DNA of 64,000 nt from Escherichia coli O157:H7 (GCF_013167455.1 NZ_CP038328.1), one strand, 5' to 3'. Counted from the first letter of the stretch, positions 38,223 to 38,656 are shown. The notes: generated by a model not told the origin, from the sequence alone. Program-made: numbers and translations.

Positions 38223-38656
38223 TATGTTCAGCGAGCGGTAAATGTCGTTTTAGCGGTGCTGAATCGAATCTTTTCAGGCAAATGCCAGTAAAAACTGCTT
38301 CATAGCGCGGATTTTTACTGGCGTTTGCCTGGAGTCAAGCGATCCATTTCATACTCTTCTTTATTTCTTCGTTTTAACCCTTCCTTTCTTGTTCTTGTTT
38401 TCATTTCCGTGAAGTGGATTCCACCGTCCAGGGCTAATGCCAAAATCGGGCCTCATTGAACGCATTAATGTTGTGTTGTTGCACGGTGAGCCGCTATGGC
38501 GCGCTTTTTATACTGCTATTGCCAGATATAAACACGCGCCGTATTCGGCGAACGACCTATAAAAACGGCAAAAAACACCCTACGTCACCTCTGATTTCCT
38601 GGCGATGTCGCAGTCCAGAGTGAGCGTGGCTAACGCGAATTTTCAGGAGTGCAACA

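What the first reader, a model, noticed from the sequence alone, without database searches (positions are those of the whole stretch)
38277..38329. Long hairpin 55 nt downstream of yqcA with strand-specific G.U pairing
GGCAAATGCCAGTAAAAA (38277-38294) pairs with TTTTTACTGGCGTTTGCC (38312-38329) across a 17-nt loop. The single non-Watson-Crick position is a G.U wobble only in plus-strand RNA (A.C on the minus strand), arguing for a functional RNA structure in the yqcA 3' region. There is no U-run, so it is not a canonical intrinsic terminator; it could be an RNase III or stability element.
Basis: seen in the sequence. Interest (0 to 1): 0.4.

Follow-up and report, generated by a model that had tools for sequence, protein, structure and literature searches.

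The report
Eroded terminator hairpin after yqcA
The long hairpin just downstream of the E. coli flavodoxin gene yqcA is real and is the worn-down local version of a transcription-terminator stem-loop conserved in related enterobacteria, so it most likely just marks and protects the end of the yqcA message rather than being a new kind of RNA element.

Summary
The hairpin is real and larger than reported: 20 bp (38275-38294 / 38312-38331) plus a weak 4-bp top. On the + strand it folds at -44.5 kcal/mol (z = -7.9). It is the longest inverted repeat in the window, single-copy, and present in 5425 of 5426 complete E. coli genomes.

In about 30 Enterobacteriaceae species the yqcA-gudP spacer holds a homologous hairpin. 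In Citrobacter, Salmonella and Raoultella it is an intrinsic terminator. The stem GCCNGU-A4...U5-ACNGGC shows compensatory changes (A-U, U-A, C-G), and a conserved (G/A)UUUUCA tail follows it.

In Escherichia the GC-rich top has decayed. The tail mutated from TTTTCAT to TTTGCCTG, which now pairs with CAGGCAAA and lengthens the stem. The separate terminator that sits directly after yqcA in other genera is missing. A C-rich, G-poor tract follows the hairpin.

Best reading: the hairpin forms and protects the 3' end of the yqcA transcript. It acts either as a weak intrinsic terminator or as a protective stem-loop ahead of Rho-dependent termination.

No expression data could be found.

In Salmonella and Citrobacter the sequence upstream of the hairpin is complementary to the gudP ribosome-binding site, which suggests an undescribed small RNA that has decayed in E. 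coli.

The parts
37773..38222 (+). yqcA (flavodoxin) coding sequence. The hairpin lies in its 3' flank.
   Evidence: ORF of 149 aa. Annotated as yqcA in RefSeq E. coli genomes.
38259..38274 (+). Remnant of 'box1' (CTGAATCGAATCTTTT). In other genera this is the conserved 16-mer ACTGAATCG(A/T)GTTAGC immediately 5' of the hairpin.
   Evidence: Alignment of yqcA-gudP spacers. In Salmonella and Citrobacter box1 is complementary to the gudP RBS region. In Escherichia this complementarity is lost.
38275..38294 (+). 5' arm of the hairpin (CAGGCAAATGCCAGTAAAAA). It contains the palindromic box GGCAAATGCC (38277-38286) and an A5 tract.
   Evidence: The box is conserved as (G/A)GGCAWWTGCC in about 28 species.
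38295..38311 (+). Apical region: a weak 4-bp helix (CUGC 38295-38298 with GCGG 38307-38310), an 8-nt loop and a bulged A38311. It is the decayed counterpart of the GC-rich top of the terminator seen in Citrobacter and Raoultella.
   Evidence: RNAfold. Orthologues carry CCTTTC-ATTT-GAAAGG and similar stems.
38312..38331 (+). 3' arm (TTTTTACTGGCGTTTGCCTG). It consists of a U5 tract, then ACUGGC, then GUUUGCCUG. The last segment replaces the ancestral tail GUUUUCAU(A/G).
   Evidence: The columns for the outer five base pairs (C38275-C38279 with G38327-G38331) are paired essentially only in the Escherichia sequences (columns 14-18 with 66-70).
38333..38410 (+). C-rich, G-poor, pyrimidine-rich tract directly 3' of the hairpin, with rut-like composition.
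   Evidence: C 20, G 7 in 78 nt. This is in the top 1.6% of + strand windows in the 64 kb. GC skew is -0.6. C exceeds G in most orthologues.
38338..38353 (.). CRP-like site. It reads AGCGA-TCCATT-TCATA on the + strand and TATGA-AATGGA-TCGCT on the - strand. It is the near-invariant box GTCAAGCGAcctgtTTCACAC in other species and marks the upstream edge of the gudP control region.
   Evidence: Conservation. It resembles the TGTGA-N6-TCGCT sites listed in the Footprint-seq table. It lies about 163 bp from the TATACT -10, the same distance as the CRP site in garP. This is an inference from sequence, not a binding test.
38431..38442 (+). gudP upstream box GGGCTAATGCCA. It has the same motif as the hairpin arms.
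   Evidence: GCWWWYGCCA occurs 4 times within 38278-38524, against 17 in the whole window and 4.6 expected by chance. Similar boxes occur at the garP and cdaR promoters.
38509..38514 (+). Putative gudP -10 hexamer TATACT.
   Evidence: Conserved in all species. It is shared with the garP promoter. Found by pattern scan in L008.
38628..38649 (+). gudP RBS region GGCTAACGCGAATTTTCAGGAG. This is the 'anti-box' complementary to box1 of Salmonella and Citrobacter.
   Evidence: RNAduplex energy -19 to -22 kcal/mol, z = -4.2 to -5.4, 0 of 500 shuffles as good, in Salmonella and Citrobacter. In E. coli the energy is -6.7.

Best explanation
The hairpin is the Escherichia version of a conserved + strand terminator stem-loop, called T2 here. 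T2 separates the truC-yqcA transcription unit from the CRP/CdaR-type control region of gudPXD.

In E. coli it most likely forms and protects the 3' end of the yqcA transcript. RNA polymerase transcribes the 57-nt palindrome and the 20-bp stem folds. Two routes then lead to the same outcome.

(a) Some polymerases terminate at the residual UUU that follows the conserved sub-stem UGCCAGUAAAAA...UUUUUACUGGCG. This would be weak intrinsic termination.

(b) Polymerases read on into the C-rich, G-poor tract at 38333-38410. Rho terminates there, and 3'-to-5' exonucleases trim the RNA back to the base of the hairpin. [quoted passage not shown]

What is shown: the structure, its uniqueness, its homology to canonical terminators, compensatory changes in the central stem, the Escherichia-specific loss of the U tail and of the yqcA-proximal terminator T1, and the rut-like composition downstream.

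What is inferred: that a transcript 3' end actually lies here, and which of the two termination routes dominates.
For: - Stability and uniqueness.
- Position: 55 nt after the yqcA stop codon. It is the only strong hairpin before the gudP control region.
- Homology: homologous hairpins occur in about 30 species.
- Terminator calls in relatives: Citrobacter L008 is called as a terminator on both strands. The long hairpin plus a (G/A)UUUUCA tail is found on the + strand in Citrobacter, Salmonella and Raoultella, at -15 to -24 kcal/mol.
- Salmonella lacks the GC top but keeps the outer stem and the tail.
- Compensatory pairs. The metagenomic locus L144 carries GCCCCU/AGGGGC.
- E. coli lacks T1 (CCCTCCC...GGGAGGG), which follows the yqcA stop codon in most other genera.
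- E. coli sub-stem: -20.1 kcal/mol with tail UUUGCCUG.
- Downstream window 38333-38410: C 20, G 7, top 1.6% of the window.
- Published class: stable stem-loops not followed by U-rich sequence, with rut sites immediately downstream (PMC6061677 abstract).
Against: - No experimental 3' end, transcription start site or expression data for this spacer could be retrieved.
- The simple terminator scan does not call the hairpin in E. coli. The tail has only three U residues and the apical helix is weak.
- In Phytobacter, Kosakonia and Silvania the hairpin is poor or is oriented for the - strand, while the flanking boxes stay conserved at fixed spacing. This could mean that the deeper constraint acts on the DNA.
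- Within E. coli the few SNPs sampled give no information on pairing.
Confidence: 0.55

Rival explanations
1. The hairpin is a functionless relic. It was the terminator of a small intergenic gene that is intact in Salmonella and Citrobacter but has decayed in Escherichia. Its near-perfect 20-bp form arose neutrally. One possible route is template-switch 'quasi-palindrome correction', which copies one arm onto the other.
For: - Several features of the module are eroded together in all six Escherichia species. The upstream part and T1 are deleted. The -10-like hexamer has A2 changed to G (CGTTTT). Box1 has diverged and its complementarity to the gudP RBS is lost. The GC top has decayed and the U tail is lost.
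- The three substitutions TTTTCAT to TTTGCCT all increase complementarity, as templated mutation would produce.
- Stem substitutions within Escherichia are single transitions with no compensation. L002 carries two G.U and two A.C pairs.
Against: - The hairpin is retained in 5425 of 5426 genomes, with 4320 identical over 81 nt.
- It is now the only strong hairpin after yqcA, so it will affect the 3' end of any transcript that crosses it.
- Neutral decay would be expected to shorten a stem, not lengthen it.
Confidence: 0.2
2. The element acts at the DNA level. The two arms are a pair of binding boxes for a transcription factor of the gud/gar regulon, possibly CdaR. They lie next to a CRP site at the upstream edge of the gudP control region. 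Because the box (GGCAWWTGCC) is itself a palindrome, two copies are automatically inverted repeats, so the hairpin would be a by-product.
For: - GCWWWYGCCA occurs four times within 250 bp (both arms, the gudP -80 box and the gudP +1 region), against 17 in 64 kb and 4.6 expected.
- Related boxes occur elsewhere in the regulon: GTGCATATGCTC and GCATTTGCACAATG at garP, and GGCATTTGCACAATGCC at cdaR.
- Box sequence and box-to-CRP spacing (58-60 bp) are conserved in Phytobacter, Kosakonia and Silvania, where pairing is not.
- The adjacent box GTCAAGCGA...TTCACAC is nearly invariant.
Against: - The compensatory changes in the central stem (A-U, U-A, C-G; G-C to C-G) are what base pairing predicts, not two independent protein sites.
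- Enterobacter, the C. freundii group and Buttiauxella lack the whole module yet keep gudP, its proximal boxes and the CRP-like site.
- No binding data are available. The CdaR motif is inferred here from only three promoters.
Confidence: 0.12
3. The hairpin is an RNase III processing or retroregulation site. Only transcripts that read past the internal U5 tract can form the full 20+4-bp duplex. RNase III cuts that duplex, which destabilises read-through yqcA mRNA or separates it from gudP. This would resemble lambda sib/tI.
For: - A near-perfect duplex of 20 bp plus 4 bp is long enough for RNase III (the length requirement is from general knowledge).
- The architecture is nested: an A5/U5-flanked inner hairpin sits inside a longer stem.
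Against: - No cleavage data are available.
- The inner hairpin is too weak in E. coli to act as a separate terminator.
- The outer part of the duplex is specific to Escherichia, so any such role would be recent.
Confidence: 0.08
4. The element works on the - strand. The hairpin would be either a bidirectional terminator for antisense transcription coming from the gudP side, or it would overlap a CRP-dependent - strand promoter. That promoter would have TTGACT at 38338-38333, AAAAAT at 38316-38311 and CRP centred near -41.5, and would fire an RNA antisense to the yqcA 3' end.
For: - A promoter-like match is found on the - strand.
- The CRP-like site is positioned as in a class II promoter (my calculation).
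- TTGAC is invariant across species.
- Phytobacter L057 has a terminator only on the - strand.
- The - strand also folds stably, at -37.6 kcal/mol.
Against: - The -10 element lacks its final T in most species: AAAAAC, AAAAAA or TTCACC (my reading).
- The 42-aa - strand ORF that PGAP calls in some genomes is not conserved.
- No - strand gene converges on this site.
- Raoultella has only the + strand U tract.
Confidence: 0.05

Closest known systems
Rho-independent (intrinsic) terminators of Enterobacteriaceae, including the A-tract/U-tract 'bidirectional' type
   Same: A stable stem-loop shortly after a stop codon. An A5 tract and a U5 tract flank the hairpin top. The orthologues in Citrobacter, Salmonella and Raoultella have a U-rich tail and are called by a terminator scan.
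   Different: In E. coli the GC-rich top is only 4 bp. The U tail is reduced to UUU and is base-paired into the stem. The stem is unusually long (20 bp) and AU-rich. The flanking genes are co-directional, not convergent.
Protective 3' stem-loops of Rho-dependent transcripts (Dar and Sorek 2018, PMC6061677)
   Same: An energetically stable stem-loop that is not followed by a U-rich sequence, with a C-rich, G-poor (rut-like) tract immediately downstream.
   Different: Rho dependence and the 3' end were not measured here. This hairpin visibly derives from an intrinsic terminator.
Lambda tI/sib retroregulator (terminator hairpin that extends into an RNase III site in read-through RNA). Recalled from general knowledge.
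   Same: A U tract lies inside the 3' strand of a longer stem, so only read-through RNA can form the full duplex.
   Different: There is no evidence of RNase III cleavage or of two classes of transcript. The inner hairpin is very weak in E. coli.
Short trans-acting sRNAs with a 5' seed and a terminator hairpin, encoded next to their target
   Same: In Salmonella and Citrobacter a conserved 16-nt box directly 5' of the hairpin is complementary to the gudP RBS. A -10-like hexamer sits 7 nt upstream of the box.
   Different: There is no Rfam family and no expression evidence. The candidate promoter is weak. In E. coli the seed, the -10-like hexamer and the upstream part are all degraded.

Membership tests
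Rho-independent terminator | Stable RNA stem-loop at the 3' end of a transcription unit | tested here: met
   -44.5 kcal/mol, z = -7.9. It lies 55 nt after the yqcA stop codon.
Rho-independent terminator | U-rich tract immediately 3' of the full stem | tested here: not met
   After G38331 the sequence is GAGUCAAGCG. The terminator scan gives no call in E. coli.
Rho-independent terminator | U-rich tract 3' of the evolutionarily conserved sub-stem (ending ...ACUGGCG) | tested here: inconclusive
   The E. coli tail is UUUGCCUG, with 3 consecutive U. Orthologues have UUUUCAUA.
Rho-independent terminator | Orthologous elements are canonical terminators | tested here: met
   L008 is called on both strands. 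Long hairpin plus U tail in Citrobacter, Salmonella and Raoultella. The stem covaries.
Rho-independent terminator | RNA 3' end mapped at the site | not testable with these tools
   No accessible term-seq table lists yqcA or gudP.
Protective stem-loop of Rho-dependent transcripts | Stable stem-loop without a U tract, with a rut-like C>G region immediately downstream | tested here: met
   (C 20, G 7 in 38333-38410, top 1.6% of the window). Class definition from the PMC6061677 abstract.
Protective stem-loop of Rho-dependent transcripts | Read-through on Rho inhibition and exonuclease-dependent 3' end | not testable with these tools
   Needs bicyclomycin treatment and pnp/rnb mutant RNA-seq.
Bidirectional terminator | Convergent transcription units on both sides | tested here: not met
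   yqcA and gudP are both on the + strand. The only - strand ORF is not conserved.
Dispersed repeats (REP/BIME, ERIC, MITE) | Many copies per genome | tested here: not met
   One locus per genome in 5425 genomes. The second 'place' is the palindrome matching itself.
RNase III substrate | About 20 bp or more of near-perfect dsRNA | tested here: met
   20 bp plus 4 bp with one bulge.
RNase III substrate | Cleavage by RNase III | not testable with these tools
   Needs an rnc mutant or an in vitro assay.
Trans-acting sRNA (candidate, in relatives) | Conserved seed complementary to a target RBS | tested here: not met
   E. coli: -6.7 kcal/mol, z = +1.3. The feature is met in Salmonella and Citrobacter: -19 to -22 kcal/mol, 0 of 500 shuffles as good.
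Trans-acting sRNA (candidate, in relatives) | Own promoter | tested here: inconclusive
   A -10-like hexamer keeps A2 and T6 in 14 of 17 non-Escherichia species, but its -35 is poor. All Escherichia have CGTTTT (read by eye).
Any Rfam family | Covariance-model match | tested here: not met
   Only csrB matches. Nothing is found in the yqcA-gudP spacer of E. coli or of six other genera.
Transcription-factor operator (CdaR/CRP region) | Match to a motif shared by co-regulated promoters | tested here: inconclusive
   Motif enrichment and similar boxes at garP and cdaR, but no binding data and no published motif could be retrieved.

The most novel reading that the evidence does not exclude
The hairpin is the terminator of a decayed copy of a previously undescribed small RNA gene of about 60-70 nt, located between yqcA and gudP. 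In Salmonella and part of Citrobacter the gene looks intact. It has a -10-like hexamer, a 5' seed ACUGAAUCGUGUUAGC that can pair over 15-16 bp with the gudP ribosome-binding region, and a covarying terminator. Such an RNA would repress or tune the glucarate/galactarate transporter encoded next to it. Escherichia has lost the seed and the promoter but kept, and lengthened, the terminator stem.
Probability: 0.25. Interest if true: 0.6.

Novelty: new member of a known kind. Interest (0 to 1): 0.3.

Why it matters
For E. coli the result is modest. It gives the unannotated yqcA-gudP spacer a likely 3'-end element. It also flags as spurious a 'hypothetical protein' that PGAP calls across the 3' arm in some genomes.

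The comparative picture is more useful in three ways.
- It shows an intrinsic terminator being converted, within one genus, into a long stem-loop without a U tail, followed by a rut-like tract.
- It delimits the gudP control region, which begins with a CRP-like site directly after the hairpin.
- It points to a testable candidate small RNA in Salmonella and Citrobacter that could regulate uptake of oxidised sugars (glucarate/galactarate), a pathway linked to growth in the inflamed gut.

Tried and rejected
- Known RNA family: Rfam at a permissive E-value finds only csrB.
- Dispersed repeat or MITE: the element is single-copy.
- Coding on the - strand: PGAP annotates a 42-aa ORF at 38315-38443 in some genomes. 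Its length and sequence are not conserved, ranging from 3 to 60 aa.
- The spacer as a paralogue of the divergent garP-garD spacer: the local alignment score is no better than shuffles. Only the core promoter (TTGCAC...TATACT) is similar.
- The module as a simple tandem duplicate of the gudP promoter and leader. Short, position-consistent similarities exist: GCCAGTAAGCAA..AACGACC against leader +20 to +50, with species-specific matches. Individual scores are weak (z up to 3.9) and the order of the pieces does not fit a tandem copy.
- A conserved - strand CRP class II promoter: the -10 lacks its final T in most species.
- Strand-specific G.U as evidence for + strand RNA: the bias is only 59 to 38 cells and is not phylogenetically independent.
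- Literature and supplementary tables (term-seq, SMRT-Cappable-seq, RIL-seq, Footprint-seq, sequence-string search): nothing on this spacer.

Full report
**Context.** The window is E. coli; the region is 100% identical to O157:H7 and to K-12. The local gene order on the + strand is as follows:
- csrB, 36242-36601
- yqcC
- truC, 36973-37755
- yqcA, 37773-38222
- a 434-nt spacer
- gudP, from 38657

**The observation.**
- The stem is longer than reported. It spans 38275-38294 and 38312-38331, giving 20 bp with a single U.G pair at 38283.38323.
- The 17-nt 'loop' contains a weak 4-bp helix and a bulged A.
- RNAfold gives -44.5 kcal/mol on the + strand (z = -7.9) and -37.6 kcal/mol on the - strand (z = -6.6).
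- It is the longest inverted repeat in the 64 kb.
- It is single-copy and present in 5425 of 5426 complete E. coli genomes.
- Nothing is annotated there in K-12, at 2922428-2922480 complement.
- There is no Rfam match.

**Comparative anatomy.** A scan of one genome per species with YqcA returned 80 loci. yqcA-gudP synteny is widespread, with spacers of 280-515 nt. About 30 species carry a conserved module between yqcA and a near-invariant box GTCAAGCGAcctgtTTCACAC. From 5' to 3', the module has these parts:
- In most genera, a strong terminator T1 (CCCTCCC...GGGAGGG) directly after the yqcA stop codon.
- A segment GCCAGTAAGCAAAA.AACGACC.
- 'Box1', ACTGAATCG(A/T)GTTAGC.
- 'Box2', (G/A)GGCAWWTGCC.
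- A hairpin homologous to the one in the window.
- The sequence GGC(A/G)TTTTCA(C/T).

Enterobacter, the C. freundii group and Buttiauxella lack the module. In those genera T1 or REP-like sequence abuts the GTCAAGCGA box.

**The hairpin in relatives is a terminator.**
- In Citrobacter L008 the top of the hairpin (CCTTTC-ATTT-GAAAGG, flanked by A4 and T5) is called as a terminator on both strands.
- Across Citrobacter, Salmonella and Raoultella the whole long hairpin (GCCNGU-A4-top-U5-ACNGGC, -15 to -24 kcal/mol) is followed on the + strand by a conserved tail (G/A)UUUUCA.
- Salmonella has lost the GC top through a 10-nt deletion but keeps the outer stem and the tail. The common functional unit is therefore the long stem plus the tail.
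- The stem shows compensatory change. In A2, pair 18-50 is AU 6 / CG 4 / UA 2 and pair 19-49 is GC 10 / GU 2 / CG 1.
- A metagenomic Citrobacter-like locus carries GCCCCU/AGGGGC.
- On 28 species, 68.8% of cells are paired against 32-48% when the partners are slid.
- In Phytobacter, Kosakonia and Silvania the hairpin is poor, or has a U tract only on the - strand, while the boxes and their spacing persist.

**What changed in Escherichia.** All six Escherichia species share the same changes:
- T1 and the upstream segment are absent.
- The GC top has decayed to 4 bp.
- The tail has changed from TTTTCAT to TTTGCCT(G). It now pairs with CAGGCAAA and adds outer pairs, which are essentially found only in Escherichia.

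After the full stem there is no U run. After the conserved sub-stem (-20.1 kcal/mol) the tail is UUUGCCUG. Directly downstream, 38333-38410 has C 20 and G 7, which puts it in the top 1.6% of + strand windows.

**Best explanation.** The hairpin is the terminator T2 of this module. In E. coli it is now the only strong structure after yqcA, and it most likely defines and protects the 3' end of the truC-yqcA transcript. Two routes are possible:
- weak intrinsic termination at the residual UUU;
- Rho-dependent termination in the C-rich tract, followed by exonucleolytic trimming back to the stem.

The second route matches the class that Dar and Sorek described: stable stem-loops not followed by U-rich sequence, with rut sites immediately downstream. 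I could not obtain any 3'-end or transcription-start data for this spacer, so the function is inferred.

- The G.U argument is weak. In Escherichia sp. L002 the same position is C.A on the + strand. Overall, + strand G.U cells outnumber A.C cells only 59 to 38, and most come from one inherited position.
- It is met for the outer five base pairs (C38275-C38279 with G38327-G38331), which are new in Escherichia.

**Rivals.**
- (i) Neutral relic. The whole module is eroded in Escherichia, and the three tail substitutions all increase complementarity. Templated quasi-palindrome correction would produce that pattern.
- (ii) DNA-level boxes.
  - The arms carry GCWWWYGCCA. This motif occurs four times in 250 bp, against 17 in the window and 4.6 expected.
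  - It resembles boxes at the gudP, garP and cdaR promoters.
  - The box is itself a palindrome, so two copies pair automatically.
  - The neighbouring invariant box reads as a CRP site (TGTGA-N6-TCGCT on the - strand).
  - That site lies about 163 bp from TATACT, the same distance as the CRP site listed for garP/garD.
  - Against this rival, the stem shows covariation, and clades that lack the module still keep gudP.
- (iii) RNase III or lambda sib-like processing. The stem is long enough, but this was not tested.
- (iv) A - strand role.
  - A promoter-like TTGACT-16-AAAAAT overlaps the 3' arm, with the CRP-like site centred near -41.5.
  - The -10 is not conserved.
  - The - strand ORF that PGAP annotates in some genomes is not conserved.

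**A lead outside E. coli.** In Salmonella (four sequences) and Citrobacter (L008, L022, L019), box1 is complementary to the gudP RBS region GCUAAC(A/G)CGA-AAA-UUCAGG.
- The RNAduplex energy is -19 to -22 kcal/mol, z = -4.2 to -5.4, with 0 of 500 shuffles as good.
- It is weaker in L144, Superficieibacter and Silvania (-10 to -15 kcal/mol).
- It is absent in Escherichia and in Phytobacter/Kosakonia.
- A -10-like hexamer with A2 and T6 sits at -12 to -7 from the first A of box1 in 14 of 17 non-Escherichia species. In all Escherichia it is CGTTTT (read by eye).

This fits a short RNA with a 5' seed that ends at T2 and targets gudP. However, the -35 is poor, there is no expression evidence, and the literature and Rfam hold nothing on it. 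I rate it at about 25%.

**Verdict.** The structure is real. It is an unannotated, partly eroded terminator-type stem-loop: a new member of a known kind, with modest interest for E. coli itself.

Noticed in passing
L023 (Salmonella) 3040-3056 vs 3400-3425; L008 3030-3046 vs 3395-3420; window 38628-38649: The conserved 16-nt box1 (ACTGAATCGTGTTAGC), 5' of the hairpin, is complementary to the gudP ribosome-binding region in Salmonella and Citrobacter (-19 to -22 kcal/mol, 0 of 500 shuffles as good). It is not complementary in Escherichia. E. coli keeps the target-side sequence GGCTAACGCGAATTTTCAGGAG.
   Followed up: partly
window 38338-38353: A near-invariant box GTCAAGCGA...TTCACAC lies directly after the hairpin. 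It reads as a CRP site (TGTGA-N6-TCGCT on the - strand; TATGA-AATGGA-TCGCT in E. coli). It is about 163 bp from the gudP TATACT, the same distance as the CRP site in the garP/garD spacer.
   Followed up: partly
window 38278, 38319(-), 38433, 38515; L083 7040-7100; L084 1895-1915: The motif GCWWWYGCCA is clustered four times in the yqcA-gudP spacer. garP and cdaR share an identical GCATTTGCACAATG just upstream of their -10 regions, and gudP has TTGTTGCACGGTG at the same place. These are candidate sites for the regulator of the gud/gar regulon.
   Followed up: partly
window 38264-38280 vs 38635-38649: In Escherichia the degraded box1 region (TCGAATCTTTTCAGGC) resembles, in the same orientation, the cell's own gudP RBS (GCGAATTTTCAGGAG). 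This may be a gene-conversion footprint or chance.
   Followed up: no
L008 2990-3012 vs 3315-3345; L057, L068 likewise: The start of the module (GCCAGTAAGCAAAA.AACGACC) resembles gudP leader positions about +20 to +50. The matches are species-specific, for example AATAGCGAC(G/C)CGGCA in Phytobacter and GCCAGATA(T)AACGA in Raoultella. This suggests concerted evolution or a shared ligand.
   Followed up: partly
window 38315-38443 (-): PGAP annotates a 42-aa 'hypothetical protein' (WP_001296328.1) across the 3' arm in some E. coli genomes. The frame is not conserved in other genera, so it is probably a spurious call.
   Followed up: yes
window 38580-38630; L046, L068 gudP leaders: The gudP 5' leader of about 135 nt is well conserved. 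It contains a 9-bp hairpin (UCAUUCUGA...UCAGAAUGA in most genera) just upstream of the RBS. This may be a regulatory leader structure.
   Followed up: no
window 36242-36601 (+): csrB small RNA (Rfam RF00018, 382.6 bits), 1.2 kb upstream of yqcA on the same strand.
   Followed up: yes
window 14785-14846, 42790-42873, 10127-10175, 15724-15765: REP-type palindromes (CTTATCCGGCCTACA / GCCGGATGCGACG motifs) appear among the other inverted repeats of the window. A perfect 16-bp inverted repeat lies at 62694-62733.
   Followed up: no
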